Notes under the pieces: model-generated | What the model saw: the letters and a program-made list of their open reading frames with translations, nothing else | What the model was told of the DNA's origin: nothing | Databases searched by the model: none | NCBI GenBank assembly: GCA_963817435.1 | Contig: CAWFNY010000004.1 | Location: forward strand, 22,080-86,079 | From: an uncultured Gemmatimonadales bacterium | GTDB taxonomy: Bacteria > Gemmatimonadota > Gemmatimonadetes > Gemmatimonadales > GWC2-71-9 | Reading direction: 5' to 3' | Length of the DNA stretch: 64,000 bases | In this document: positions 12,385 through 24,788 of the stretch, piece by piece | Numbering within the stretch: the stretch's first letter is position 1 | Layout: each line of letters starts with the position of its first letter | Translations under genes and position numbers: made by a program

Positions 12385-12466
12385 GGTGGGAGTCTACGCC
12401 TGCCCTGTGACACCCGCCAGCACGCAATGCTGGCGCGTTTCCGGCGCGCGAGTGACTATTGTCGGC

Positions 12467-13429
12467 ATGATCCACTCCTCGGTTGTCTCGCCCGCCCGGC
12501 GGCAGCTCGGCCTGATGATCCTCACGGCGGCACTCGCGGCCGCACCGGTCGGGGCCCAGGCGCCGGCGCTCGATGCGCTCGCCACCCGACTCTCCGCCGT
12601 GACGGCTGTCTCCGGATTCGAAGGGGCCCTGGCCGACTCGCTGCTCGCACTGCTGCCAGGCGCCGCGCGCGATCGCGCGGGTAACGTCGTGCTCACCCTG
12701 GGCAGCGGCGAGCCGAAGTCGCTCATCGCCTGCCCGATCGACGAGCCCGGCTTCGTGGTCGGCGGCATCCGTCCCGACGGCTACCTCACCCTGCGGCGCG
12801 CCGGTCCCACCCCGGGGCCGCTCGCCGACCAGCAGCTCGAGGGACAGCGGGTGACACTCTTCGGACGGCGCGGGCCCGTGCAGGGTGTGGTCGGGGTCCG
12901 CTCCACGCACCTCGCCCGCGGCCGGAATCCTGTCGAGGCACCCTTCACGTTCGATGATGCCTTCGTCGATGTCGGCGCCGACTCCGCCAGTCAGGTCGCT
13001 GCGCTCGGACTCGAGGTGCTCACACCGGTGGCGCGTGCCAAGGCGCCGCAGCGCTACGGTGCAGGCCTTCTGGCCGCGCCGGTCGCCGGCCGCCGGGCGG
13101 CGTGTGCCGCACTCCTCGGCGCGGCAGAAAGCGTTCGGCCGTCGCGCGGCAGCGTGACCATCGCCTTCGTGGTCGAGCAGTCGTTCACCCGACGGGGATT
13201 GCTCACACTCGCACAAACCCAGGGCCCGTTCGCCGCGACGGTGCTGCTCGAGGCGCAGTCCGCTCTGCCTGCGACGAGCCCGCGGTCGCCCGACCCGGAA
13301 AACCTTCAGGGCTACGAGGTCTGGGGCCTGACAGTCCGCTACGCCGGAACACCGGTGGAAACGGTATCACTGACCGATGCCGCCGCGCTCGAGCGCCGGA
13401 TCGCGGCCCGGATCGGAGGTCCAGAGTGA
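12467..13429 (+). CDS. M42-peptidase-like secreted protein with degenerate metal ligands
   Basis: M42 scaffold (SGFE, DRAGNV, DEPGFVVGGI, FVDVGADS). The HxD, DDR and EE ligand sites read CPID, GRR and EQ. N-terminal signal-like segment. Confidence 0.65.
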   Translation: MIHSSVVSPARRQLGLMILTAALAAAPVGAQAPALDALATRLSAVTAVSGFEGALADSLLALLPGAARDRAGNVVLTLGSGEPKSLIACPIDEPGFVVGGIRPDGYLTLRRAGPTPGPLADQQLEGQRVTLFGRRGPVQGVVGVRSTHLARGRNPVEAPFTFDDAFVDVGADSASQVAALGLEVLTPVARAKAPQRYGAGLLAAPVAGRRAACAALLGAAESVRPSRGSVTIAFVVEQSFTRRGLLTLAQTQGPFAATVLLEAQSALPATSPRSPDPENLQGYEVWGLTVRYAGTPVETVSLTDAAALERRIAARIGGPE

Positions 13430-14511
13430 GCACGCGCGCCCTGGGGGCCCTCCTGCTGTCGCTGGCCACAAGCCGTGCCGCCGTCGCACAGCGCCCCATC
13501 ACCGTCCGCGACGCCGAACGGGTGCTCGCTCCGCTCGTCGAGGCATATGGCGTCTCCGGCGCGGAAGCTCCGGTCCGCGAACTCGTGCGGCGCCAGCTCC
13601 CGGCCTGGGCCCGCGCGGAAACCGATACCGCCGGCAATCTCTGGGTGACGGCGGGCCGCGGAGAGCCGCTGGTCGTCTTCGTGGCGCACCTCGACGAGAT
13701 CGGCTTCCGGGTGAGGGGAATTCGTGACGACGGGCAATTGCTGCTGGACACGAAGGGCGGGTTCTTCGCTTCGCTCTATGAGGCGGAGCCGGCGCTGGTG
13801 CACACGCCGGCCGGGATCGTACCCGGCGTCTTTCCGCCTCGGGACTCGGCGATCGTGCGGCGGAACCCGGGTGAACTCAGGGTCGACGTCGGGACCGCGG
13901 ATCGCGCGGGCACCGAGGCCCTGGGCATCGCGCCCGGTGCCACGGTGACCAGCCCCAAGCGCTACGTCAGGCTCGCGAATACCAGGGCCACCGGGCGCTC
14001 CTTCGACGATCGGGTCGGCTGCGCCGCGCTGCTGCTGGCGCTGCAGCGGCTGGACCCGGCGCGGCTCCACCACGCGGTGACGTTCGTGTTCAGCGTGCGG
14101 GAGGAAATCGGGCTGGAGGGAGCCGCGGCGGTCGCGAACGCGCTCGGCCTCAGGCCCGCGCGGGTCCACGCGATCGACACCTTCGTCTCGTCCGATGCGC
14201 CGCTCGAGCCGAAGGCATACGCCTTCGCCGTGCTCGGTCAGGGGCCGGTGATCCGTGCGCTCGACAACAGCGCGGCTGCGCCGCCCCCGCTGGTGGACTC
14301 ATTGCGAGCGCTCGCGAGGGGCCGGCGGATTCCGCTCCAGTACGGCACCACCAGCGGCGGCAACGACGGATCCACCTTCCTGCCGTGGGGTGTTCCCGAT
14401 GTCGCCATCGGCTGGCCGCTCCGCTACTCCCACTCTCCCGTGGAAACGCTCGACCTCCGCGACGTGGCCCATCTCGCGGAGGTCGTGGAGCTGATCGCGG
14501 AGCGCTGGTAG
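13426..14511 (+). CDS. M42 family aminopeptidase with signal peptide
   Basis: GVSGAE, AHLDEIG, SFDDRVG, REEIG, IDT, GGNDG, RYSHSPVE. GTG start overlaps the upstream stop (GTGA). Confidence 0.88.
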   Translation: MSTRALGALLLSLATSRAAVAQRPITVRDAERVLAPLVEAYGVSGAEAPVRELVRRQLPAWARAETDTAGNLWVTAGRGEPLVVFVAHLDEIGFRVRGIRDDGQLLLDTKGGFFASLYEAEPALVHTPAGIVPGVFPPRDSAIVRRNPGELRVDVGTADRAGTEALGIAPGATVTSPKRYVRLANTRATGRSFDDRVGCAALLLALQRLDPARLHHAVTFVFSVREEIGLEGAAAVANALGLRPARVHAIDTFVSSDAPLEPKAYAFAVLGQGPVIRALDNSAAAPPPLVDSLRALARGRRIPLQYGTTSGGNDGSTFLPWGVPDVAIGWPLRYSHSPVETLDLRDVAHLAEVVELIAERW

Positions 14512-14518
14512 CGGGCGA

Positions 14519-14992
14519 CTACTGCACCTCGAAGTCCTTCGAGCCCGCCGCCGAACCGTTGAACGTCACCTCGATCCGGTACTTCCCCTTCGGCCAGGGC
14601 GAGGCCTTGCTGATGTGGAACTCGGTCGAGGCCGGCCCCGATGTGGTGATGGTCTGGGACGACTCATTCACCGGGATCAGGGTGCCGTTCACCTTCACGA
14701 AGCTCCACTTCGCACCGAGTGTCGCGTTGCTGCCGATCCCGGTCGTGCTCACCGAGGCATAGATCGTGTCCTTCACGCCGAAGGTCGTCGTGCCTCCGGT
14801 GACCATCTTCATGGCGTCCACGCCCTTGCCGAGGTCGATGGAGGCGACGGCCAGTGGCGCGGGCGGTGGGGCGGGCTGGGCGGCGGCCGGCGACTCGGCG
14901 GGTTTGGCCGCTTCCTTTTTGCCGCAGCCGGTGGAGGCGAGGATGAGGGCCGCGAGCAGGCACGAGGCGGAACTGCGGATGCGGTATGTCAT
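14519..14992 (-). CDS. Hypothetical lipoprotein
   Basis: Lipobox-like LASTG-C, Ala/Pro linker, beta-rich domain (WPKGKYRIEV). Confidence 0.7.
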   Translation of the reverse strand: MTYRIRSSASCLLAALILASTGCGKKEAAKPAESPAAAQPAPPPAPLAVASIDLGKGVDAMKMVTGGTTTFGVKDTIYASVSTTGIGSNATLGAKWSFVKVNGTLIPVNESSQTITTSGPASTEFHISKASPWPKGKYRIEVTFNGSAAGSKDFEVQ

Positions 14993-15009
14993 GGGTGGAC
15001 TCGCTCGGC

Positions 15010-15243
15010 TCAGGCGTCGGGGATCTTGATGACCTGGCCGGGAAAGATCAGGTCGGGGTTCTTGATGATGTCCTTGTTGGCTTCATGAATCTTCCTCCAC
15101 TGCTTTGCGTCGCCGTAGAACTGCCTGGCGATCTTCGAGAGGCTGTCGCCCTTGGCGATCGTGTAGGTGCGGCCGCCCTTGGCATCGGCGGTCGAGGAAC
15201 TGCCACCGCTCACATCGGAGAAATCGGGATCATCGGGGGCCAT
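15010..15243 (-). CDS. Small LysM-domain protein
   Basis: YTIAKGDSLSKIARQFYG...IHEANKDIIKNPDLIFPGQVIKIP. Confidence 0.92.
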   Translation of the reverse strand: MAPDDPDFSDVSGGSSSTADAKGGRTYTIAKGDSLSKIARQFYGDAKQWRKIHEANKDIIKNPDLIFPGQVIKIPDA

Positions 15244-15382
15244 TGGGTCGCTCCCGGCCGGGACGGTCCGGCCACGCAGGGGTGTGACACGATGCCGGGT
15301 GCGGCCTCCTGCCGCGCCGGCTCGTGGAAGGCAAGACTACCCGTGACGGCGGGCCAGCGGCAACCGCGGGGCGCACTTGCGC

Positions 15383-15406
15383 CTGAAATTGCATAATGCA
15401 TATTTA
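15383..15406 (+). promoter_or_regulatory. Possible ArgR operator (overlapping TGCATA half-sites) upstream of argG
   Basis: AT-rich patch ctgaaattgcataatgcatattta in a GC-rich background. Only half-sites match the ARG box. argR closes the operon. Confidence 0.35.
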
Positions 15407-15412
15407 CCCGCC

Positions 15413-16600
15413 ATGAAGACTCTCGTTCTTGCCTTCTCGGGCGGCCTCGATACCTCCTTCTGCGTCCCGCACCTCGCGGAGCAGGGCTGGTCGGTCCACA
15501 CCGTCTACGTGGACACGGGCGGCGCCACCGCCGCGGAACTCACCGCCATCGCCAGGCAGGCGAAGGCCGTCGGCGCCGTCGAGCACCACACCATCGATGC
15601 GCGGCAGGCGGTGTTCGATCGCTTCGTCCGCTATCTCATCCAGGGCAACGTCCTCCGCGGTGGGGTCTATCCGCTCTCTGTCTCCGCCGAGCGGACCCAG
15701 CAGGCGCTCTCGGTGATCGAGGCGGCCCGCGCCATCGGCGCCACCGCCGTCGCCCACGGCTCCACCGGCGCCGGCAACGATCAGGTGCGCTTCGATATTG
15801 CCTTCCGCGTGCTCGCACCGGAGCTGCTGATCGTCACGCCGATCCGTGATGAGGGGATCACCCGCGAGCAGTCGATGGCCTTCCTCGAGGCGCGCAAGCT
15901 TCCGGTGCCGCCCAAGGCGGGGTCGTACTCGATCAATCGCGGTCTGTGGGGCACCACCTGGGGTGGCGGCTGGACCCACGATACCTGGGCCGGCCCTCCG
16001 CCGGAGCTGCTCGATCCGCCCGCCGAAGCTCCCGCGCCGCGGGAGATCGTGATCGGCTGGACACGGGGTGTGCCGGTCTCGGTCGACGGGGTGGCGCAGA
16101 GCGGCCCCGACCTGATCCGGCTTCTCGGTGATCTCGCCGAGGCCTACGGCTTCGGCCGCAACATCCACGTCGGTGAGACGGCGCTGGGCATCAAGGGACG
16201 GATCGGCTTCGAGGCCGGCGCGGCCCTGCTCCTGATCGCGGCCCATCGCGAGCTCGAGAAGCTGGTGCTCACCAAGTGGCAGGCGTTCTGGAAGGACCAG
16301 CTCGGCACCTTCTACGGCGACCGGCTGCATGAGGGGCATTACTTCGATCCTGCGCTGCGGGACATCGAGGCCTTTCTGGCCAGCAGCCAGCAGCGCGTGA
16401 CCGGCGACACCCGCGTGCTGCTCGCGCCGGGGCGCTTCCAGGTGGTCGGGACGCGGAGTCCCTTCTCGATGATGGACCGGAGTGTCGCCACGTACGGCGA
16501 GGAGAACCGGCTCTGGACCGGTGAGGAGGCGCGGGCGTTCAGCCGCGTCTCGGCGATTCCCGAACTGCTCGCGGCCAAGGTCGCCGCCAAGTCCAAGTAA
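15413..16600 (+). CDS. argG: Argininosuccinate synthase
   Basis: LAFSGGLDTS, AHGSTGAGNDQVRF, YSINRGLWG, GIKGRIGFEA. Confidence 0.95.
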   Translation: MKTLVLAFSGGLDTSFCVPHLAEQGWSVHTVYVDTGGATAAELTAIARQAKAVGAVEHHTIDARQAVFDRFVRYLIQGNVLRGGVYPLSVSAERTQQALSVIEAARAIGATAVAHGSTGAGNDQVRFDIAFRVLAPELLIVTPIRDEGITREQSMAFLEARKLPVPPKAGSYSINRGLWGTTWGGGWTHDTWAGPPPELLDPPAEAPAPREIVIGWTRGVPVSVDGVAQSGPDLIRLLGDLAEAYGFGRNIHVGETALGIKGRIGFEAGAALLLIAAHRELEKLVLTKWQAFWKDQLGTFYGDRLHEGHYFDPALRDIEAFLASSQQRVTGDTRVLLAPGRFQVVGTRSPFSMMDRSVATYGEENRLWTGEEARAFSRVSAIPELLAAKVAAKSK

Positions 16601-16609
16601 GGAGCACCA

Positions 16610-17686
16610 ATGGTCAAGACCACGCGCATTCGTCTGGATCGTATTTCGTCGTCGACCCGAAACGCCCACCTCGCGGCGGAGGTGATCGTCGGCGACGAGA
16701 TCATCGCCGCCGAGGGATACGTCCTCGCGGTGCGGGTCCTGCACGACAAGTCGAGCTACAACACCGTCGAGGACCTGAGCGGACGCATGGTCTCGCTGCG
16801 CGCCGGCGACGTGCTCGCCGGCACGCTCGGCCACCGGCGGGCGCTGCGCGGCTACGCGGGCGTCGTGCCGAGCACCATTGCGGTCGGCGACACGATCGAG
16901 GTGCTCAACCTGGGAGGCATCCTGGGCAAGTGCACCTCCGCGACGCCCGAGAACGGCGCGCCGTTCAAGGCCGAGGTGCTGGGGGCGATCCTGTCGTTCC
17001 CGGCGCTGGGAGACCGGATCGGCCGGCCGGCCCATATCAAGGATCACTCGGTGCCGCTCGCCGACCACCTCGAGGGCAGCGTGCCCGTGGTCTACGTCGC
17101 CGGCACCTGCATGAACGCGGGCAAGACGGTGGCTGCGACCGAGCTGGTGCGGGGACTCACGCGGTCGGGCCTCCGGGTGGCGGCCTGCAAGCTCACCGGT
17201 GTGTCGCTCATGCGGGACTCGCTCTCGATGCTCGACGCCGGCGCCGTCGCCTCGCTGACCTTCAACGACACCGGCATCGCGACCACCCGTGCCGGTCTCA
17301 CCGTCACCGCGGCCAAGGGCATCTTCAACCGCCTGAATGCCTCCAAGCCCGACGTGATCGTCGCCGAGCTGGGCGACGGTATCCTCGGCGAGTACGGCGT
17401 GCAGGACATCCTGCGCGATCCCGAACTCACCGACGTCGGCGCGGCGTACGTGATGGCCGCGCCCGATCCCGTCGGCTGCTGGGGCTCGGTGACGCTCATG
17501 CGCGACCTCTTCGGCCTTCCGGTGACCGTGCTGACCGGCCCCGCGACGGACAATGAAGTGGGCCGCGACTACATCAAGGCGGAGCTGCAGATCCCGGCGC
17601 ACAACGCGCTGCGCGACGCGCAGGGGCTGATCGACGTCGTCCGGGTCGCGCTGGAGAGCCGGCAACCCGAGGTCGCTACCGTCTGA
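16610..17686 (+). CDS. DUF1611/DgcN-like P-loop protein within the arg operon
   Basis: VAGTCMNAGKT P-loop, AACKLTG, DAGA, DVIVAELGDG. 9 bp after argG; stop abuts argC start. Confidence 0.65.
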   Translation: MVKTTRIRLDRISSSTRNAHLAAEVIVGDEIIAAEGYVLAVRVLHDKSSYNTVEDLSGRMVSLRAGDVLAGTLGHRRALRGYAGVVPSTIAVGDTIEVLNLGGILGKCTSATPENGAPFKAEVLGAILSFPALGDRIGRPAHIKDHSVPLADHLEGSVPVVYVAGTCMNAGKTVAATELVRGLTRSGLRVAACKLTGVSLMRDSLSMLDAGAVASLTFNDTGIATTRAGLTVTAAKGIFNRLNASKPDVIVAELGDGILGEYGVQDILRDPELTDVGAAYVMAAPDPVGCWGSVTLMRDLFGLPVTVLTGPATDNEVGRDYIKAELQIPAHNALRDAQGLIDVVRVALESRQPEVATV

Positions 17687-18735
17687 TGCCGCTTCGGGTC
17701 ACGGTGATCGGCGCCGCCGGCTATGCCGGCGGCGAACTGCTTCGGCTGCTGCTCCAGCACCCCGACGTGGGTGATGTCGTGGCCACCAGTCGCAGCCAGG
17801 CCGGGGTGCCCGTCGGCGACGTGCATCCCGCGCTCGCGCCGCTCACCGACGTGCGCTTCTCGGGCGCGTCGCCCGCCGAAGCATCGCGCGGGGCCGATGT
17901 CGTCTTCCTCGCGCTCGAGCATGGCGAGAGCTCGAAGGTGGCGGAGGAAATCTTCGCGGCGAATCCGGGGCTGGTCATCGACCTCGCCGCGGACTTCCGG
18001 GTGAGCGACCTCGAGCTGTACGCGCGGTACTACGGGCAGCATCCCGCCCCGCACCTGGTGCCGAAGTTCACCTACGCCTTGGCCGATGTGCTGGGCACCA
18101 GCCTCCATGGAAAGACGGCGCTCGCCGCCCCCGGCTGCTTCGCGACCGCGGCGCAGCTTGCGCTCTACCCGCTGGCGAAGAGCGGCCTCTCGACGATTCC
18201 CGCGCTCTTCGCCGTGACCGGCTCGAGCGGCAGCGGGGTGCATCCCAAGCCCACGACCCACCACCCGGCGAGGGCCCACAATCTCTTCGCCTATTCGGTC
18301 CTGAATCACCGCCACGAGGCGGAGATCCTCCACAACTGGCGCGCCTGGCGCGGCGATCCAGGGGCCCGGGCCCGCCTGATGACCCACTCGGGACCGTTCG
18401 TGCGCGGGATTCACCTGACCCTGCACGTGGACCTCGGCACGGGCGTCGATGGCCGCACCCAGAGCACCGATGTGGCCGCGCTCTTCAGGAACGCCTACCG
18501 CGACCGGCCCTTCGTCCGCCTGGTGGATCAGGCGCCGGAGCTGACCCATGTGGTCGGCACCAACTACGCCATCATCCAGGCGGCGCAGTCGCCGGACGGG
18601 CGCGAGGCGCAGGTGATGGTCGTGATCGACAACCTGGTCAAGGGTGCCGGTGGCCAGGCGCTTCAGGCGATGAACCTCTCTCTCGGCCTCCCGGAAACGG
18701 CGGGGCTCCGCTTCGCCGGGATGTTCCCATGCTGA
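17686..18735 (+). CDS. argC: N-acetyl-gamma-glutamyl-phosphate reductase
   Basis: IGAAGYAGGELLRLLLQHP, DLAADFR, APGCFAT, IDNLVKGAGGQALQAMN. Confidence 0.95.
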   Translation: MPLRVTVIGAAGYAGGELLRLLLQHPDVGDVVATSRSQAGVPVGDVHPALAPLTDVRFSGASPAEASRGADVVFLALEHGESSKVAEEIFAANPGLVIDLAADFRVSDLELYARYYGQHPAPHLVPKFTYALADVLGTSLHGKTALAAPGCFATAAQLALYPLAKSGLSTIPALFAVTGSSGSGVHPKPTTHHPARAHNLFAYSVLNHRHEAEILHNWRAWRGDPGARARLMTHSGPFVRGIHLTLHVDLGTGVDGRTQSTDVAALFRNAYRDRPFVRLVDQAPELTHVVGTNYAIIQAAQSPDGREAQVMVVIDNLVKGAGGQALQAMNLSLGLPETAGLRFAGMFPC

Positions 18736-19883
18736 AGTCCGACAGCGCACTGCTTCCGGTCTACGCGCAGTTCCCGGTCCGCCCCGTCTCCGGGCGCGGG
18801 TCGTGGCTCATCGACGCCGATGGCAACGAGTGGCTCGATGCCTATGGCGGCCACGCCGTCTCCTCGACCGGACACAGCCATCCTGCGGTCGTCCGCGCGA
18901 TCGCGGAGCAGGCGGAGAAGCTGCTGTTCTATTCGACCGCTGTCCCGCACCCGAATCGCGAGCTGCTCGCCGAGCGGCTGGCGGGGCTCTGTCCCGCGCC
19001 GCTGGGCAAGGTCTTCTTCTGCAACTCGGGCGCTGAAGCGAACGAGAACGCGCTGCATCTCGCGCGGAAAGTCACCGGGCGGAAGGCGATCGTGTCCCTG
19101 GAGGGTGGCTGGCACGGACGCACCGTCGCCTGTCTCGCGGTGACCGATGGCGCCAAGTACGAGGAAGGCGCGCTCCGCGCCGGGATGCCGCTCTCGCGGA
19201 AGATCCCCTTCAATCAACTCGTCGGCCTCGAGCGCGCGATCAATCCCACGGTCGCCGCCGTGATCCTTGAGCCGGTGCAGGGGATGTCCGGTGCCCGGGC
19301 CTGCGACACCGCCTTCCTGCGGCGGGTGCGCGAACTCTGCACCGAACATGGCGTGCTGCTCATTTTCGACGAAGTGCAGTGCGGCGTCGGCCGCTGCGGA
19401 GCCTTCACCGCGGCGGAAGCGTTCGGCGTCGTCCCCGACATCCTGACCATGGCGAAGGGCCTCGGCTCGGGTCTCCCGATCGGCGCGGTCGTGACGACCG
19501 ACGCGGTCTCCGCCACCATACGGACCGGAGACCTTGGCAGCACCTTCGGGGGCGGCCCCGTCCCCTGCGCCGCCGCACTCGCGACGCTCGATGTGATCGA
19601 GGACGAGGGGCTCATCGCCAACGCCCGCGAGATCGGGGAGTACCTCCGCGCGGAGGCGCGTCGCCTTTGCGGCCAGGCCATCACCGGCGTCGAGGGACGC
19701 GGGCTCCTGATCGGGCTGCGGCTCAACCGGCCGGCGGCGGATGTCCAGAAGGCGCTGTTCGCAAAGCGGATCCTCACCGGCACGGCGAGCGATCCCGCGA
19801 TCCTGCGCCTCATTCCTCCGCTCGGCTTCGCCCGCGCCGAAGCGGACCTGCTGCTGACGGCCCTCCAGGAGGTGCTGGCATGA
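18729..19883 (+). CDS. argD: Acetylornithine aminotransferase
   Basis: FFCNSGAEANE, WHGRT, EPVQG, FDEVQCG, TMAKGLGSG (PLP lysine), STFGG. Confidence 0.92.
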   Translation: MLKSDSALLPVYAQFPVRPVSGRGSWLIDADGNEWLDAYGGHAVSSTGHSHPAVVRAIAEQAEKLLFYSTAVPHPNRELLAERLAGLCPAPLGKVFFCNSGAEANENALHLARKVTGRKAIVSLEGGWHGRTVACLAVTDGAKYEEGALRAGMPLSRKIPFNQLVGLERAINPTVAAVILEPVQGMSGARACDTAFLRRVRELCTEHGVLLIFDEVQCGVGRCGAFTAAEAFGVVPDILTMAKGLGSGLPIGAVVTTDAVSATIRTGDLGSTFGGGPVPCAAALATLDVIEDEGLIANAREIGEYLRAEARRLCGQAITGVEGRGLLIGLRLNRPAADVQKALFAKRILTGTASDPAILRLIPPLGFARAEADLLLTALQEVLA

Positions 19884-20896
19884 GCAAGCGCGATTTCCTC
19901 ACCGTCGAGGACTGGACCGGGGAAGAGATCGACGCGCTGCTCGCGCTCGCTGCGAAGATCAAGCGGGGCGAGGTGCTCGGCGGGCTGGAGCGGAAGGTCA
20001 TGGCCATGGTCTTCATGGATCCCAGTCTCCGCACCCGCACCAGCTTCGAGACCGCGATGTTCCTGCATGGCGGGCACGCCGTCGTCCTCGAGCCCGGCAA
20101 GAGCAGCTGGAGCCTGGAGACCGAACCGGGCGCCGTCATGGATGGCACGACGGTCGAGCACATCAAGGATGCGGCGCGGGTCCTCGGCCGCTACGCGGAT
20201 GTCGTCGGGGTGCGCTCGTTCCCGCGGGGGACCGACTGGAACACGGTACGGGAGGACCGGATCGTGCGCGACTTCGCACGGTACTGCGAGAAGCCCGTCA
20301 TCAATATGGAATCCTCGCGCCGGCATCCGTGCCAGCAGCTCGCGGACGCCATGACGCTCCGGGAGAAGCTGGGCGACCCCCGCGGCAAGCGCTTCGTGCT
20401 GTTATGGGGATGGCATCCCAAGTCCCTGCCGACGGCGGTGCCCGCGAGTGCGGCGCTCGCCGCGGCGCACCAGGGAATGGAGATCGTCATCGGGCGCCCG
20501 GACGGCTACGAACTCGACGCGGAGGACACCGCCCTGATCCGGAAGATCGCGCAGGCGCGCGGCGGCGAGTTCGTGCACATCATGAACGACCCGGATGAGG
20601 CGGTCGTCGGCGCGGACGTGGTCTACGTGAAGTCCTGGGGTGCGGTGAAGCACTTCGGGCAGCCCGAGGAAGAGGCCGCCTTCCGCGCCGGGCTGCGCGA
20701 CTGGAGGCTCACGGCGCAGCGGCTCAAGTCCACCCGCGGCGGCCAGGCGACGGTGATGCACTGTCTTCCGGTGCGCCGCAATGTGGAGATCGACGACGCC
20801 GTACTCGACGGACCGACCTCCGCGGTGGTGGACGAGGCGGAGAACCGGCTGCATGTGCAGCGCGCGCTGCTGCTGACGCTGCTTGGCAAGACCTGA
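19880..20896 (+). CDS. argF: N-acetylornithine carbamoyltransferase (ArgF')
   Basis: SLRTRTS rather than STRT, SWSLE, HPCQ, WGWHPKSLPTAV, MHCLPVRRNVE; these are AOTCase-type signatures. Confidence 0.85.
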   Translation: MSKRDFLTVEDWTGEEIDALLALAAKIKRGEVLGGLERKVMAMVFMDPSLRTRTSFETAMFLHGGHAVVLEPGKSSWSLETEPGAVMDGTTVEHIKDAARVLGRYADVVGVRSFPRGTDWNTVREDRIVRDFARYCEKPVINMESSRRHPCQQLADAMTLREKLGDPRGKRFVLLWGWHPKSLPTAVPASAALAAAHQGMEIVIGRPDGYELDAEDTALIRKIAQARGGEFVHIMNDPDEAVVGADVVYVKSWGAVKHFGQPEEEAAFRAGLRDWRLTAQRLKSTRGGQATVMHCLPVRRNVEIDDAVLDGPTSAVVDEAENRLHVQRALLLTLLGKT

Positions 20897-20911: not shown

Positions 20912-21847
20912 ATGACCATCGATCCATCCAAGGGCATTACCGGCCTCAAGGGCGCGCTGCGCTACGTGCGCGCCTATCGCGACAACGTCTTCGTCGTCAA
21001 GCTGGGCGGCGACGTCCTCGCGGACACCGAGGCGCTCGACCGGGTGGCGCAGCAGCTCGGGCTGCTCTCGTCGCTGAGCATCCGCATCGTCGTGGTCCAC
21101 GGGGGCGGGCCCCAGGCCACGGCGCTCTCGCGCCGGCTCGGGCAGGAGCCGACCATCGTCGCCGGGCGCCGGGTCACCGACGAGTCCGCGCTCGAAGTGG
21201 CGAAGATGGTGTATGCCGGCTCGCTCAACGTGAACCTGCTCGCCTCGCTCCGCGCCCATGAGGTGCAGGCGGTCGGCCTCTCGGGGGTCGATGCCGATCT
21301 CATCAGCGCGCGCCGCCGCCCGCCGGTGAAAGTCGTGGACGACGCCGGGGTCTCCCGCGAGGTGGACTACGGCCACGTCGGCGATGTCGACCGGGTGGAT
21401 CCCCGGGTGCTGGAGACCCTGCTCTCGACGCGGTTCATGCCGGTGGTCGCGAGTCTCGCCGGCGACAGCGACGGCAACGTCTTCAACGTCAACGCCGATA
21501 CCGTGGCGGAGTCGCTGGCGACCGCGCTCAAGGCGCAGAAGCTCATCTTCCTCACCGGCGCCCCGGGCGTGCTGCGCGATCGCAACGATCCCTCGAGTCT
21601 CGTGACCTTCGCGGACCCGGACGATCTCGCCAACCTCATGTCGAGCGGCTCGATCGCGGGCGGCATGCGCCCGAAGGTGGAGGCCTGCATCCGTGCCGCC
21701 ACGGGCGGCGTGGAGCGTACCCATATCATTGATGGCCGGTTGCCGGATTCCATCCTGCTCGAGGTGTTCACCGGCGCGGGATGCGGAACGATGATCGTCG
21801 GCCGCAAGGAAAAGGCGACCTATCTTGGCGTGGACCTCGCGACCTGA
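20912..21847 (+). CDS. argB: Acetylglutamate kinase (no fused GNAT domain)
   Basis: VVKLGG, VVHGGGPQ, GRRVTD, NVNAD, GGMRPKVEAC, HIIDGR. Confidence 0.93.
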   Translation: MTIDPSKGITGLKGALRYVRAYRDNVFVVKLGGDVLADTEALDRVAQQLGLLSSLSIRIVVVHGGGPQATALSRRLGQEPTIVAGRRVTDESALEVAKMVYAGSLNVNLLASLRAHEVQAVGLSGVDADLISARRRPPVKVVDDAGVSREVDYGHVGDVDRVDPRVLETLLSTRFMPVVASLAGDSDGNVFNVNADTVAESLATALKAQKLIFLTGAPGVLRDRNDPSSLVTFADPDDLANLMSSGSIAGGMRPKVEACIRAATGGVERTHIIDGRLPDSILLEVFTGAGCGTMIVGRKEKATYLGVDLAT

Positions 21848-22901
21848 GATTGCCCTCCTCCGCGACCTCGTCGCGATCCGCTCGGTCAGCGGGACCGAGG
21901 AGACGATCGCCCGGTGGGTGGAGGAGTGGGCGCGCGCGGCCGGGCTGCAGGTAAGCCGGGACGACGCATCGGTGGCCATCACCGTTCCCGGCCGGGCCCC
22001 CGGCCGGACGCTGGCGTTTGTCTCGCATCTCGACACCGTGCCGGCGGGTGAGGGGTGGACCCGGCCCGCGTTCGAGCCGACCATCGACGGCGACCGGATG
22101 TACGGCCGCGGCTCGGGCGACGCCAAGGCGTCGGTCGCCGCCATGCTGATGGCCGCCCGCGACCTGGCCGAGTCAGGCGGGCCGATGGCGGGCAGGCTGC
22201 TGGTCGTGCTCGGCTACGAGGAGGAGACCAAGCTCACCACGATGGGCACCGCGGTGGCGCGGCTCGGACCGATCGACGCCGCCATCGTCGGTGAGCCGAC
22301 CAATCTGGAGTTCGCGATCGCGCAGCGCGGGCTCATGATGGTGGACCTCGTCGCCCGCGGGGTGCAGCGGCACGCCGGATACGCGGCCGACAACCCCGAC
22401 TTCACCAACGCCATCGTCGAACTCGGCCGGAATGTCGCGAAGCTGCCGTCGCTCTTCCGCGACCGCGTTCACCCGATCCTGGGGATCGCCACGGCCACGC
22501 CGACCATGCTGGAGGGCGGCATCAGCCGGAATGTGACGCCGCCGGTCGCCCGCGCCGTCCTCGACGTGCGGAGTACACCGAGCTGGAGTCACGCCGAACT
22601 GGCCAGGGCGCTCACCGAGGCGCTCGATGTCGAGGTGATCGTGACCTCCGACCGGCTGGTGCCATGCGAGACGCCGCCCGGCTCCCGGCTGCTCGACCTC
22701 GCGCGCCAGGCCCGCCCCGAAGGAAGGCCGTTCGGTTCACCTACCTGTTCCGACTGGGTATTTTTGCGCGACCGGGATGCCATCAAGTGCGGGCCCGGGA
22801 CCAGCCGCCGCTCGCACACCCCTGACGAGTACGTCGACCTGCCGGAAGTCTCGGAGGCGCGGCTCTTCTATCGCCAATTAGCCCAGGCCTACCTCGCATG
22901 A
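21825..22901 (+). CDS. argE: M20 deacetylase (ArgE-like; probably N-acetylcitrulline/acetylornithine deacetylase)
   Basis: [25 protein letters not shown]...SH. Lies inside the arg operon. Exact start uncertain (TTG). Confidence 0.8.
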
Positions 22902-24338
22902 GCCGCAAGAAACCCGGAGCCCGCGCCACGACACCGCCGCCGCCGATCCCGCCGGTGATGACCACCCTGTGGGCGTCGAGCAATTCGCTCGACCGCCAGA
23001 TGCTCGACTACACCGCCGCCGAAGACCGGCTGTGGGACGGACGGCTGATCGCGTGGGACATTCTCGGGAGCCTGGGACACATCGAGGGTCTCCGCGCCTC
23101 GAAGCTCCTGAGCCAGACCGAGTACCAGCGGCTCCGCGCGGGCCTCCGCGCGGCATTGCGGGAGGTCGAGGCGGGCCGCCTCGAAGTGACGCCGGAACAT
23201 GAGGACGTGCATACCGCGGTCGAGGACTGGCTGGTCCAGCACGTCGGTCCCGTCGGGGAGCGGCTGCACACCGGGCGCTCGCGCAACGACCAGGTCGCCT
23301 GCGACCTCCGGCTCTACCTCAAGGACCGGCTGCTGCTCCTGAGCGGCGAGGCGCTCGACCTCGCCGAGAGCCTCCTGATCTTCGCGCAGAAGTATCAGCG
23401 GGTCCTGTGGCCCGGCTACACCCACACCCGGCGGGCCATGCCTTCCTCGGCCGGGCTGTGGGCCGCCGCCTTTGCGGAGGGCATCCTGGATACCGTGGAG
23501 GCCGCGCCGGCCGTCTGGGCGAAGGTGGACCGGTCGCCGTTAGGCAGCGCCGCCGGCTACGGGGTGCCGCTGCCGCTCAAGCGCGAGGCGACGGCCAGGG
23601 CGCTGGGCTTCGGCAGCGTGGAGCACAACGTCGGCCTGGTGCAGAACAGCCGGGGCAAGCTCGAGGCCCTCGTGCTGTTCTGGTGCGTGCAGCTCGGCCA
23701 CGAGCTCTCCAAACTCAGCACCGACGTCATCGTGTTCTCGTCGGATGAGTTCGGCTTCCTGGTGCTGCCGCCCGACCTCGCGACCGGCTCCAGCATCATG
23801 CCTCACAAGCGGAACCCCGATCTGTTCGAGCTGACCCGCAGCCGCGCCGCGGCGCTCGAGGGCGACCTCTTCACCGTCTTCCAGATCAAGGGGAAGCTCG
23901 GCAGCGGCTACCACCGTGACTTCCAGCTCATCAAGGAGCCGGTCATGCGCGGCGTGGACCGGCTCGAGGGGATGCTCTCCATGCTCGCCGTCGCGGTGCC
24001 GCGCCTCGGCGTCGACGCGGCCGTGGGCCGCGACATCCTGAGCGGCGGCCCGCTCGCGACCGACGAGGTGATGCGCCGGGTGGAGAGCGGCCGGGCCTTC
24101 CGCTCCGCCTATCGGGAAGTCGCGGCCGCGATCAAGGAAGGCGACTGGTGGCGGGAGCCGGCCACCGAGGAGATCATCGGCCGGCGGCGCAGCACCGGCG
24201 GGCTGGGCAATCTCGGACTGCCGGCCGTGCGTGCCGCGGCTCCGCGCCTGCCGGGCATGGGCCGCGCGGGAGCAGCGCAAGTTCGAAGGCGCGATCGACC
24301 GGCTGGCCGGCCGGGGCGGTTCGCGCGGTGGCCCATGA
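22898..24338 (+). CDS. argH: Argininosuccinate lyase with frameshift near 24235
   Basis: [37 protein letters not shown]. The plausible C-terminus ([25 protein letters not shown]...) is in another frame and ends at TGA 24336-24338, overlapping the argR ATG. Confidence 0.88.
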
Positions 24339-24788
24339 GCGGCGACCGTCGGAAGCGCCACCTCAAGATCCTCGAGCTGATCAGCACCCGGCCGATTCAC
24401 ACGCAGGAGGAGCTGGCCGACGCCCTGTCGGCGGAGGGATGGAAGGTCACCCAGAGCTCCGTCAGCCGCGACATCACCGCGCTCGAAGCTGGTGAAGGTG
24501 GACGGCGCCTATCGGCGTCCCGCACGGATCACCGCCGAGCCCGAGCACCCTGACGAACGGCGCATCGTCGAAGGGGTGCTCACCGCCGAGGCCGCGGGCG
24601 ATGCCCTCTGCGTGCTGCACACGCCCGCCGGCGAAGCCAATCGCGTCGCCGTGGCCATCGACCGGCTGGCATGGGGTGACGTCATCGGCACCATCGCCGG
24701 GGACGACACCATCTTCCTCGCCGTGCGAAACGGGCAGGCGCAGCAGCGCGTCTTGCGACAGCTCAAGCGCCTGGCTGAGGCACGGTAG
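24335..24788 (+). CDS. argR: Arginine repressor with frameshift near 24485
   Basis: TQEEL...[10 protein letters not shown] (winged HTH), then after one extra base KLVKVDGAY...[10 protein letters not shown]. Confidence 0.88.

What the first reader, a model, noticed from the sequence alone, without database searches (positions are those of the whole stretch)
16610..17686. DUF1611/DgcN-like protein in an arg operon lacking argA and argJ: candidate new N-acetylglutamate synthase
Seen: the operon encodes every step from N-acetylglutamate to arginine plus the repressor, but no ArgA or ArgJ, and neither argB nor argH carries a fused GNAT domain. The one unexplained gene is a P-loop protein (GTCMNAGKT) tightly coupled between argG and argC. 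Established: the acetylornithine-carbamoyltransferase route consumes acetyl groups and needs a de novo NAG source; the DUF1611 family includes DgcN, a D-glutamate N-acetyltransferase. Inference: this protein acetylates L-glutamate and fills the missing first step.
Basis: partly seen in the sequence, partly recalled or inferred. Interest (0 to 1): 0.75.

Follow-up and report, generated by a model that had tools for sequence, protein, structure and literature searches.

The report
Predicted non-GNAT N-succinylglutamate synthase gene
An unnamed, strongly conserved two-domain P-loop protein inside this Gemmatimonadota arginine operon is most likely the missing first enzyme of arginine synthesis. 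It probably attaches succinyl, not acetyl, to glutamate, but a 2024-2026 preprint already predicts this for what looks like the same family and nobody has tested it.

Summary
Window 16610-17686 (+) encodes a 358-aa protein (X) with the P-loop GTCMNAGKT. It is translationally coupled between argG and argC in an operon argG-X-argC-argD-argF'-argB-M20 deacylase-argH-argR. The genome has no ArgJ and no ArgA.

- X is not a DUF1611/DgcN member. Its Pfam score is below cut-off, it gives no DgcN hit, and the genome carries a separate true DUF1611 gene. X belongs to an unmodelled family: a new all-beta N-domain plus a BioD/CobQ-like P-loop domain.
- The operon's carbamoyltransferase has the published succinyl-type signature (V92/P184/E303), as do all 73 X-linked ArgF'. 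The pathway is therefore probably N-succinyl, not N-acetyl.
- The first-step role is well supported by comparative genomics. X sits next to argC in at least three phylum-level lineages. Across 301 Gemmatimonadota genomes, 83 have X, 99 have ArgJ, none has both, and none has ArgA. A natural X-(ArgB/ArgA-like kinase domain) fusion exists. A paralogue always follows a glutamate-carboxypeptidase-like hydrolase.

[quoted passage not shown] No biochemistry exists. Whether the enzyme uses succinyl-CoA or succinate plus ATP is open.

The parts
15390..15402 (+). AT-rich TGCATAATGCATA element 11 nt upstream of the argG start; possible ArgR operator or promoter element
   Evidence: Read directly from the sequence. 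No inverted repeat was found by the repeat finder. Not followed up.
15413..16600 (+). argG, argininosuccinate synthase
   Evidence: PF00764 and PF20979; NCBIfam argininosuccinate synthase models.
16610..17686 (+). Gene X (P0001, 358 aa): predicted first-step enzyme, N-acyl (probably N-succinyl)-L-glutamate synthase
16610..17059 (+). X N-terminal all-beta domain (about residues 1-150), with near-invariant S14, E54, G74, R76, P87, G93, G103 and G106; proposed substrate-binding domain
   Evidence: AF2 secondary structure; conservation in alignment A1; no PDB fold match covers it.
17072..17659 (+). X C-terminal SIMIBI/BioD-like P-loop domain: Walker A G165-T173 (17102-17128), invariant K194 (17189-17191), and the Walker-B-like stretch D248-E253-G255 (E253 at 17366-17368)
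17686..18735 (+). [quoted passage not shown]
   Evidence: TIGR01850, 327.8 bits against a cut-off of 233.6.
18729..19883 (+). argD, N-acylornithine aminotransferase
   Evidence: PF00202; NCBIfam acetylornithine transaminase models.
19880..20896 (+). argF', knotted N-acylornithine carbamoyltransferase with the succinyl-type signature V92 (20153-20155), P184 (20429-20431), E303 (20786-20788)
   Evidence: NF003384, 411 bits. The best PDB match is the E92V mutant of X. campestris AOTCase. Residue mapping; the rule comes from PMC4581275.
20912..21847 (+). argB, N-acylglutamate kinase (311 aa, KLGG and HGGG motifs intact, no GNAT domain)
   Evidence: TIGR00761, 228.8 bits; sequence.
21825..22901 (+). 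M20 ArgE/DapE-family deacylase (predicted N-acylcitrulline or N-acylornithine hydrolase)
   Evidence: PF01546 and PF07687; TIGR01910.
22898..24338 (+). argH, argininosuccinate lyase; apparent frameshift near 24240 in this assembly
   Evidence: TIGR00838; comparison of frames with relatives.
24335..24788 (+). argR, arginine repressor; split by a 1-nt insertion near 24484-24486 relative to relatives
   Evidence: PF01316 in the N-terminal part.

Best explanation
X is the enzyme for the otherwise missing first step of arginine biosynthesis in this organism. It N-acylates the alpha-amino group of L-glutamate, and in this operon the product is most likely N-succinyl-L-glutamate. That product is then carried through ArgB, ArgC and ArgD, the succinyl-type ArgF' and the M20 deacylase to citrulline, and through ArgG and ArgH to arginine. 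X is not a GNAT and is not ArgJ. It has a previously unseen all-beta N-terminal domain, which I infer holds glutamate through the near-invariant R76, E54 and S14. This is joined to a BioD/CobQ-like P-loop domain with an intact GK[T] Walker A, an invariant Lys194 that aligns with the BioD Lys of the CKPVQTG motif, and a Walker-B-like Glu253. Shown here: the gene, its fold class, its operon linkage across phyla, its exclusion with ArgJ and ArgA, the succinyl-type ArgF' signature, and the fusion to an ArgB/ArgA-like domain. Inferred: the reaction itself. Undecided: the acyl donor. I slightly favour ATP-dependent ligation of free succinate through an acyl-phosphate over succinyl-CoA transfer. The reason is that X keeps the Mg-ligand Thr of the P-loop and the BioD-type Lys. 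The genome's own DUF1611 protein, a relative of the protein described as the D-glutamate acetyltransferase DgcN, has GKM and ATGQTG at those places.
For: (1) Every other step is assigned within the operon. No ArgJ or ArgA exists in the 97.7%-complete genome. (2) The order argG-X-argC... is kept in all 80 Gemmatimonadales loci fetched. X also lies beside argC in an Armatimonadetes genome, in two Myxococcota-like MAGs and in another lineage. In other Gemmatimonadota the order is argR-X-argC-argD-argB without argF', so the constant partners are argC, argD and argB. (3) In 301 Gemmatimonadota genomes, 83 have an X orthologue, 99 have ArgJ and none has both (Fisher p = 4e-18, not corrected for phylogeny). 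ArgA is present in 0 of 301. The six family-f1 genomes sampled that have neither X nor ArgJ also lack ArgC. Five X-positive genomes from three lineages lack ArgA, and the three from outside the phylum lack ArgJ. (4) Rosetta stone: one ORF fuses a complete X domain to an amino-acid-kinase domain of ArgB/ArgA type. The sequence is identical on four contigs from four samples, and its AAK domain has lost the KxGG motif, as I recall the non-catalytic AAK domain of ArgA has. (5) A paralogous subfamily always follows an M20 hydrolase whose best named NCBIfam match is glutamate carboxypeptidase (the top hit is an unnamed hydrolase model); this was seen in five loci and ties the family to X-Glu amide bonds. 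(6) ArgF' has V92/P184/E303. All 73 X-linked ArgF' are VPE, VPV or QPE, and none is E-N-K. (7) The fold is BioD/CobQ-like, a group of carboxylate-activating, amide-forming enzymes. (8) The only ArgA-like GNAT in the genome is ArsN2-like. Its distribution does not track X (34 of 83) or ArgJ (26 of 99), and it also occurs in genomes without ArgC. (9) Price et al. reached the same prediction independently.
Against: There is no biochemical or genetic evidence anywhere. X shows no detectable homology to any proven acyltransferase or ligase beyond the generic P-loop domain. Six family-f2 Gemmatimonadota genomes have argC-argB-argD but no X, ArgJ or ArgA. An unrecognised first-step enzyme therefore exists in the phylum and could in principle also serve here. 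The exclusion with ArgJ could reflect the pathway type (linear succinyl versus cyclic acetyl) rather than a one-for-one replacement. The counts are not phylogenetically independent. The fusion is a single protein cluster. The genome also has a canonical stand-alone OTCase, so the flux route after N-acylornithine is uncertain. Fourteen X-positive genomes lack a succinyl-type ArgF' match; a canonical OTCase was confirmed in the six of them sampled. There the acyl group cannot be read.
Confidence: 0.7

Rival explanations
1. X is the N-acetylglutamate synthase proposed by the first reader: a DgcN-like acetyl-CoA:L-glutamate N-acetyltransferase feeding an acetylornithine carbamoyltransferase route.
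For: NCBIfam names the operon's carbamoyltransferase model 'N-acetylornithine carbamoyltransferase'. X gives a weak DUF1611_C hit. The DUF1611 structure 2OBN is at Foldseek rank 14. X-positive genomes that have only a canonical OTCase carry no succinyl marker.
Against: All three published specificity residues of ArgF' are of the succinyl type here and in 73 of 73 X-linked loci. X fails every DUF1611/DgcN membership test, while a true DUF1611 gene sits elsewhere in the genome and occurs in X-positive and ArgJ-positive genomes alike.
Confidence: 0.12
2. X is an accessory NTPase and not the acylating enzyme. For example, it could be a SIMIBI-type chaperone or metal-insertase for the M20 deacylase, or a regulator or scaffold of ArgB/ArgC. 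The true first-step enzyme would then be an unrecognised small GNAT elsewhere.
For: Foldseek matches include HypB and MeaB-type metallochaperone GTPases. The paralogues always sit next to an M20 metallohydrolase. Some relatives with argCBD lack X, ArgJ and ArgA, which shows that hidden first-step enzymes exist. The paralogue module contains its own GNAT-like gene.
Against: X occurs in operons without any M20 gene (L089, L090, L091, L098). X has no Cys/His metal motif: the Cys of GTCM is variable. X has a large, strongly conserved extra domain with Arg, Glu and Ser invariants typical of a substrate site. X is fused to an ArgA/ArgB-like domain, not to M20. No GNAT co-varies with X.
Confidence: 0.1
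3. X catalyses another step. It could be an ArgJ-like recycling transacylase, moving succinyl from N-succinyl-ornithine or N-succinyl-citrulline to glutamate. Alternatively it could be an alternative ATP-dependent kinase acting on a carboxylate of the pathway.
For: The strict exclusion with ArgJ fits a functional replacement of ArgJ. BioD-like enzymes phosphorylate carboxylates or carbamates.
Against: A transacylase needs no nucleotide-binding P-loop. A hydrolytic M20 deacylase is present in the operon, which implies a linear pathway. An apparently competent ArgB with KLGG and HGGG motifs is always present. A de novo source of N-acylglutamate would still be missing.
Confidence: 0.06

Closest known systems
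[quoted passage not shown]
   Same: Both are hypothetical proteins found almost always inside arginine operons with argB, argC, argD, argF', argG, argH and argR, and with argE in only some clusters. Neither co-occurs with ArgA. Both show only remote Foldseek similarity to the DgcN/DUF1611 structure. The neighbouring ArgF' has A/P/S/V, rarely Q, at position 92. All of this was seen here too.
   Different: I could not obtain the Steroidobacter sequence, so direct homology is not shown. The preprint gives no experiment and does not discuss the points added here. Those points are the ArgJ exclusion, the X-AAK fusion, the M20-linked paralogues, the retained BioD-type catalytic residues, and X-positive genomes with only a canonical OTCase.
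DgcN / DUF1611 (PF07755, NF041892; PDB 7XRJ, 2OBN, 2G0T), described as a D-glutamate N-acetyltransferase
   Same: Both are two-domain proteins of about 350 aa with a C-terminal SIMIBI P-loop domain and a GTxxNxGK motif. The substrate is glutamate in both cases (proposed for X). hhalign aligns the C-domains.
   Different: X scores below the Pfam cut-off and gives no DgcN hit. The N-domains are unrelated: all-beta in X, and left unaligned by hhalign, which covers the C-domains only. DUF1611 has GKM and ATGQTG where X has GKT and aaKLTG. The genome has a separate true DUF1611 gene.
Dethiobiotin synthetase BioD and CobQ/CobB-type amidotransferase P-loop domains (AAA_26 / CbiA)
   Same: These are the best sequence-profile hits in the PDB. 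The shared features are GTxxxxGKT, the Lys after strand 2 (X K194 aligns with the Lys of M. tuberculosis BioD CKPVQTG), and a hydrophobic strand ending in Glu followed by G-x-G. From established knowledge, these enzymes activate a carboxylate or carbamate with ATP and form a C-N bond.
   Different: The scores are far below family cut-offs (bioD 14 bits against 83). X has an extra 150-aa beta domain. Its substrate and nucleotide use are unknown.
Classical ArgA and bifunctional NAGS/K (AAK domain + GNAT domain); also the S-, O-, H- and C-NAGS types and ArgJ
   Same: They catalyse the same pathway step (proposed for X). The natural X-AAK fusion mirrors the AAK-plus-catalytic-domain architecture of ArgA and NAGS/K (review PMC4490483).
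   Different: There is no GNAT or ArgJ fold in X. The domain order is reversed in the fusion. The acyl group is probably succinyl.
GNAT-type N-succinylglutamate synthase proposed for Bacteroides (BT3761, a homologue of Cabys_1732; GapMind, PMC7311316)
   Same: It is proposed to make the same product, in an arginine pathway that also uses succinylated intermediates and a SOTCase.
   Different: It has an unrelated fold (GNAT) and uses an acyl-CoA donor.
ArgX/LysX (ATP-grasp ligases that attach glutamate to LysW)
   Same: This is an ATP-dependent, CoA-independent way of protecting the glutamate amino group by amide formation. It is the closest mechanistic precedent for the ligase reading of X.
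   Different: It has a different fold (ATP-grasp) and needs the carrier protein LysW.

Membership tests
DUF1611 / DgcN | Score at or above the Pfam PF07755 gathering cut-off (25 bits) | tested here: not met
   X scores 20.7 bits, E = 3e-4, over only 57 residues around the P-loop. A genome-wide PF07755 search finds one gene, and it is not X.
DUF1611 / DgcN | Match to the NCBIfam DgcN model NF041892 | tested here: not met
   X gives no hit at E <= 0.1. The genome's true DUF1611 protein scores 281 bits.
DUF1611 / DgcN | Homologous N-terminal domain and full-length alignment | tested here: not met
   hhalign gives 42% probability over the C-domain only. BLASTP matches 11 of 30 residues at the P-loop. 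The X N-domain is all-beta. The A1 profile hits no DUF1611 PDB chain at E <= 10, whereas the true DUF1611 hits 2OBN, 7XRJ and 2G0T.
DUF1611 / DgcN | Acetyl-CoA-dependent N-acetylation of glutamate | not testable with these tools
   This needs an enzyme assay.
Predicted alternative N-succinylglutamate synthase (ACG33_RS14135 family) | Encoded inside arginine biosynthesis clusters | tested here: met
Predicted alternative N-succinylglutamate synthase (ACG33_RS14135 family) | Never co-occurs with ArgA | tested here: met
   ArgA is present in 0 of 301 Gemmatimonadota genomes and in 0 of 5 X-positive genomes from three lineages. In addition, 0 of 83 X-positive genomes have ArgJ.
Predicted alternative N-succinylglutamate synthase (ACG33_RS14135 family) | Neighbouring ArgF' has A/P/S/V (rarely Q) at AOTCase position 92 | tested here: met
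   V92 in the window; across linked loci 67 are VPE, 3 VP?, 2 VPV and 1 QPE.
Predicted alternative N-succinylglutamate synthase (ACG33_RS14135 family) | Remote structural similarity to DgcN/DUF1611 | tested here: met
   2OBN at Foldseek rank 14, E = 2.4e-5, rmsd 5.5 A. This is no better than the matches to BioD, FtsY or HypB.
Predicted alternative N-succinylglutamate synthase (ACG33_RS14135 family) | Direct sequence similarity to A0A127FCT3 | not tested
BioD/CobQ-type ATP-dependent carboxylate-activating P-loop enzymes | Walker A GxxxxGK[ST], Lys after strand 2, acidic residue ending the Walker B strand | tested here: met
   G171, K172 and K194 are invariant; T173 and E253 are at least 90% conserved. 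The alignment to M. tuberculosis BioD covers the P-loop and the CKPVQTG Lys.
BioD/CobQ-type ATP-dependent carboxylate-activating P-loop enzymes | Family-model score above cut-off | tested here: not met
   bioD 14.2 bits against a cut-off of 83.3; cobQ 13.4 against 309.9. The CbiA and AAA_26 Pfam hits are all weak.
GNAT-type NAGS (ArgA and the S-, O-, H- and C-NAGS types, BT3761) | GNAT (N-acetyltransferase) domain | tested here: not met
   X shows no GNAT family in the Pfam or NCBIfam scans.

The most novel reading that the evidence does not exclude
X is a CoA-independent, ATP-dependent succinate:L-glutamate ligase. Its BioD-type P-loop domain would phosphorylate free succinate to an acyl-phosphate. 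A previously unseen beta domain would present the glutamate amine. This would be a new enzyme class for amino-acid N-acylation. The succinate released by the operon's M20 desuccinylase would be re-used at the cost of one ATP. The M20-X'-GNAT paralogue module would then be a related amide-ligase system for another N-acyl-glutamate compound.
Probability: 0.3. Interest if true: 0.75.

Novelty: new member of a known kind. Interest (0 to 1): 0.45.

Why it matters
If confirmed, the first committed step of arginine synthesis would have a third, structurally unrelated solution besides GNAT/ArgJ enzymes and the LysW/ArgX system. The family is spread over several phyla that are abundant in soil and water (Gemmatimonadota, Armatimonadota, Myxococcota and, according to the preprint, Gammaproteobacteria). 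Confirmation would close a recurrent gap that makes these organisms look like arginine auxotrophs in metabolic reconstructions. It would correct the automatic 'N-acetylornithine carbamoyltransferase' naming of their ArgF'. It would also assign a function to a family of more than 1400 clusters at 50% identity that has no Pfam or NCBIfam model. The donor question, succinyl-CoA or succinate plus ATP, can be tested directly with one purified protein.

Tried and rejected
- Folding X from its single sequence was useless (pLDDT 32.7). The alignment-based model was excellent.
- phmmer of X against the PDB found nothing.
- Two apparent longer 'fusions', P0235 (X plus ArgC-like) and P0311, are frameshift-ridden read-through translations and not real fusions. 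Only P0248 is a clean single-frame fusion.
- I considered an ArsN2-like 163-aa GNAT (P0313, genome C2:47050-47538) as a hidden short NAGS. I rejected it as the dedicated first-step enzyme because its distribution is unrelated to X, ArgJ or ArgC.
- The 136-aa ORF upstream of argG (14986-15396) has no family hit and overlaps a minus-strand gene that looks like a LysM protein, so I dismissed it.
- I checked whether the large ORFs upstream were carAB. They are AddA/AddB-like helicase-nuclease genes. CarAB presence in the genome was not checked.
- The ORF after argD in genomes lacking X, ArgJ and ArgA looks like a secreted protein (N-terminal signal-like sequence, no family hit) and is not a candidate synthase.
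- The literature searches for 'DUF1611' and 'DgcN' alone were uninformative. The Protein Science 2007 paper on E92 was not held. The rule was taken from the 2015 review and from the preprint.
- The cluster look-up gave no organism names.
Full report
**What is there.** The window comes from a Gemmatimonadota genome (about 70% G+C, 4.1 Mb, 4 contigs, 97.7% complete). On the + strand lies an operon:
- argG (15413-16600)
- X (16610-17686)
- argC (17686-18735)
- argD (18729-19883)
- a knotted N-acylornithine carbamoyltransferase, argF' (19880-20896)
- argB (20912-21847; 311 aa, no GNAT domain)
- an M20 ArgE/DapE-type deacylase (21825-22901)
- argH (22898-24338)
- argR (24335-24788)

These assignments rest. 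X has an AAGGAG just upstream of its ATG, overlapping the argG stop. Its TGA stop overlaps the argC ATG (TGATG). Upstream lie unrelated genes: AddAB-like helicase-nuclease genes, M42 peptidase genes and two small minus-strand genes. Downstream lies a cation/proton antiporter.

**X is real and conserved.** X (P0001, 358 aa) has more than 3600 homologues at E <= 0.001 in the 90%-clustered collection. Among Gemmatimonadales these are 75-98% identical. There are 1400 clusters at 50% identity. An alignment of 60 diverse members (A1) shows G171, K172 and K194 invariant. About 25 further positions are at least 90% conserved. In the N-terminal half these include S14, E54, G74 and R76. In the C-terminal half they include T173, D203, D220, D248, E253, G255, Y262, D286 and G310. 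AlphaFold2 run on this alignment gives mean pLDDT 96.8 and pTM 0.93. The model has an all-beta N-terminal domain (about residues 1-150) followed by an alpha/beta P-loop domain.

**X is not a DUF1611/DgcN member.**
- Pfam DUF1611_C scores 20.7 bits against a cut-off of 25, over 57 residues.
- Other family members hit MobB, CbiA, DUF1611 and AAA_26 about equally weakly.
- The NCBIfam DgcN model (NF041892) gives no hit even at E <= 0.1.
- The A1 profile finds BioD, FtsY and MobB P-loops in the PDB, but no DUF1611 chain.
- Foldseek matches only the P-loop domain (TM normalised to the query <= 0.39). The list is generic for SIMIBI NTPases: FtsY/Ffh, HypB, BioD, ParA, the DUF1611 structure 2OBN at rank 14, and MeaB.
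- The same genome carries a bona fide DUF1611 gene elsewhere (C1:1265064-1265672). It scores 254 bits to PF07755 and 281 bits to DgcN, and it matches 2OBN, 7XRJ and 2G0T. This family occurs in X-positive and ArgJ-positive genomes alike.
- hhalign of A1 against an alignment of these DUF1611 proteins gives 42% probability, over the C-domains only.

X keeps GKT, the Lys after strand 2 (aaKLTG, which aligns with CKPVQTG of M. tuberculosis BioD) and the stretch IVAELGDG. The DUF1611 proteins have GKM, ATGQTG and VEGQGS at the corresponding places. From general knowledge of P-loop enzymes, the Thr or Ser after GK ligates Mg2+. In BioD the second Lys contacts the gamma-phosphate and the substrate oxyanion (my recollection of the literature).

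**The pathway is probably succinyl, not acetyl.** The best PDB match of ArgF' is the E92V mutant of X. campestris AOTCase. [quoted passage not shown] The window's ArgF' has V92, P184 and E303. All 73 ArgF' genes linked to X in the loci I fetched are VPE (67), VP? (3), VPV (2) or QPE (1). None has the acetyl-type signature. The NCBIfam name 'N-acetylornithine carbamoyltransferase' is therefore likely to be wrong for this gene.

**Evidence that X does the first step.**
1. *Context.* All 80 related Gemmatimonadales loci keep argG-X-argC.... The same arrangement occurs in an Armatimonadetes genome, in two Myxococcota-like MAGs where no M20 gene is in the cluster, and in another lineage. In other Gemmatimonadota the order is argR-X-argC-argD-argB (L091) or argR-X-argC-argD-argB-argG-argH (L098). 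Both of those genomes (G063, G046) have a canonical OTCase elsewhere, with STRTR, SMG and HCLP motifs. The constant partners of X are thus argC, argD and argB, the enzymes that act on N-acylated intermediates.
2. *Distribution.* Among 301 Gemmatimonadota genomes:

| Feature | Genomes |
|---|---|
| X orthologue (E < 1e-85) | 83 |
| ArgJ | 99 |
| Both X orthologue and ArgJ | 0 |
| ArgA | 0 |
| Succinyl-type ArgF' match | 70, of which 69 have X and none has ArgJ |

   Fisher's test for the X/ArgJ exclusion gives p = 4e-18, but this is not corrected for phylogeny. The exclusion is seen in at least two families. Of 12 sampled genomes with neither X nor ArgJ, the six from family f1 also lack ArgC and so presumably lack the pathway. 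The six from family f2 have argC-argB-argD with a bona fide ArgB. That is a real caveat: another unrecognised first-step enzyme exists in the phylum. The X-positive genomes from other lineages lack ArgJ and ArgA.
3. *Fusion.* A single open frame (L084 7848-9881) joins a complete X domain to an amino-acid-kinase domain of ArgB/ArgA type. The sequence is identical on four contigs from four JGI samples. This AAK domain reads VVLKIADELL where the window's ArgB has VVKLGGDVL. It has lost the KxGG motif. I infer that it resembles the non-catalytic AAK domain of classical ArgA.
4. *Paralogues.* A subfamily 30-35% identical to X is found in Gemmatimonadota that have ArgJ or neither enzyme. It always follows an M20 hydrolase whose best named NCBIfam match is glutamate carboxypeptidase (the top hit is an unnamed hydrolase model), and it is often followed by a 292-aa GNAT-like gene. 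This was seen in five loci. It links the wider family to amide bonds on glutamate.
5. *Rival GNAT.* The only ArgA-like GNAT in the genome is ArsN2-like (122 bits against a cut-off of 125). It is present in 34 of 83 X-positive genomes and 26 of 99 ArgJ-positive genomes, and also in genomes without ArgC.

**Mechanism.** The reaction is inferred, not shown. The fold and the retained BioD-type residues fit an enzyme that binds Mg-NTP and activates a carboxylate. That leads to the ligase proposal: succinate + ATP + Glu gives N-succinyl-Glu + ADP + Pi. A thioester-dependent transferase that uses the P-loop to hold the ADP moiety of succinyl-CoA is equally compatible with the genomic evidence. The preprint's description of the remote relative DgcN as an acetyltransferase fits this second reading. 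I put the first-step role at about 0.7. Within that, I put the ligase version slightly above the CoA version.

**Comparison with the literature.** Known N-acylglutamate-forming enzymes are ArgA, NAGS/K, ArgJ, the S-, O-, H- and C-NAGS types, the Bacteroides GNAT BT3761, and ArgX with LysW. [quoted passage not shown] It describes ACG33_RS14135 of Steroidobacter denitrificans as follows:
- a hypothetical protein almost always found in arginine operons;
- never found together with ArgA;
- only remote Foldseek similarity to DgcN (7XRJ);
- neighbouring ArgF' with A/P/S/V at position 92, and two exceptions with Q.

I found every one of these features here, including a Q92 case (L088). This is very probably the same family, although I could not compare the sequences directly. 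The prediction is therefore not new, and it remains untested.

This analysis adds the following:
- the ArgJ exclusion within one phylum;
- the X-AAK fusion;
- the M20-linked paralogue module;
- a true DUF1611 gene in the same genome;
- the GKT/K194 versus GKM/T contrast that bears on the acyl donor;
- X-positive genomes that use a canonical OTCase;
- relatives that still lack any candidate first-step enzyme.

Notes from earlier agents of this scan on other genomes reached the same verdict. I read them after forming mine, and they are not independent evidence.

**Verdict.** X is a new member of a predicted but unproven kind.

Noticed in passing
window 24230-24250 and 24480-24490: There are two apparent 1-nt frameshifts relative to close relatives. 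The first is in the 3' end of argH: the conserved C-terminus RLRACR...DRLAGRGG continues in another frame and ends at the TGA at 24336-24338. The second is in argR: the N-terminal DNA-binding domain and the C-terminal domain are in different frames, with an extra base near 24484-24486. These could be assembly indel errors or a decaying repressor. A second ArgR homologue lies at genome C1:1875645-1876049.
   Followed up: partly
genome C1:1265064-1265672 (outside the window): This is a bona fide DUF1611 / DgcN-related gene (PF07755 254 bits; NF041892 281 bits, below the equivalog cut-off of 480). It is unrelated in position to the arg operon and is widespread in the phylum (66 of 101 genomes).
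   Followed up: partly
genome C2:778819-779805 (outside the window): This is a stand-alone canonical OTCase (STRTR, SMG and HCLP motifs) next to a gene resembling gcvT. The genome therefore has both a succinyl-type ArgF' in the operon and an ordinary OTCase. The route from N-acylornithine to citrulline may be dual.
   Followed up: partly
L092 7067-11528; L093 8557-10700; L094 7963-10115; L095 8439-11475; L097 9550-12201: A conserved three-gene module occurs in other Gemmatimonadota: an M20 glutamate-carboxypeptidase-like hydrolase, an X paralogue (30-35% identical to X), and a 292-aa GNAT-like protein. Its function is unknown. It may make or turn over another N-acyl-glutamate or dipeptide compound.
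   Followed up: partly
L084 7848-9881 (also L085-L087): A natural fusion joins a complete X domain to an ArgB/ArgA-like amino-acid-kinase domain that lacks the KxGG motif. It lies divergent from an arginase-family gene in metagenome contigs from four samples. The organism is unknown.
   Followed up: partly
L111 9658-12571; L112 7608-10707; L113 7671-10626: Some family-f2 Gemmatimonadota have argC-argB-argD (with argR, argG and argH nearby) and a canonical OTCase, but no X, ArgJ or ArgA. Their first-step enzyme and their deacylase are unidentified.
   Followed up: partly
window 15390-15402: A TGCATAATGCATA element (tandem TGCATA) lies in an AT-rich patch 11 nt upstream of the argG start. It is a possible ArgR operator or -10 region.
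   Followed up: no
window 12383-14511: Two overlapping M42 peptidase ORFs are present. The first (12383-13429) matches only the first half of the M42 profile, while the second (13102-14511) matches it completely. This may be a tandem pair with another frameshift in the first copy.
   Followed up: no
genome C2:47050-47538 (outside the window): An ArsN2-like GNAT (NF040501, 122 bits against a cut-off of 125) is the only protein in the genome that resembles the acetyltransferase domain of ArgA. It is patchily distributed in the phylum.
   Followed up: yes
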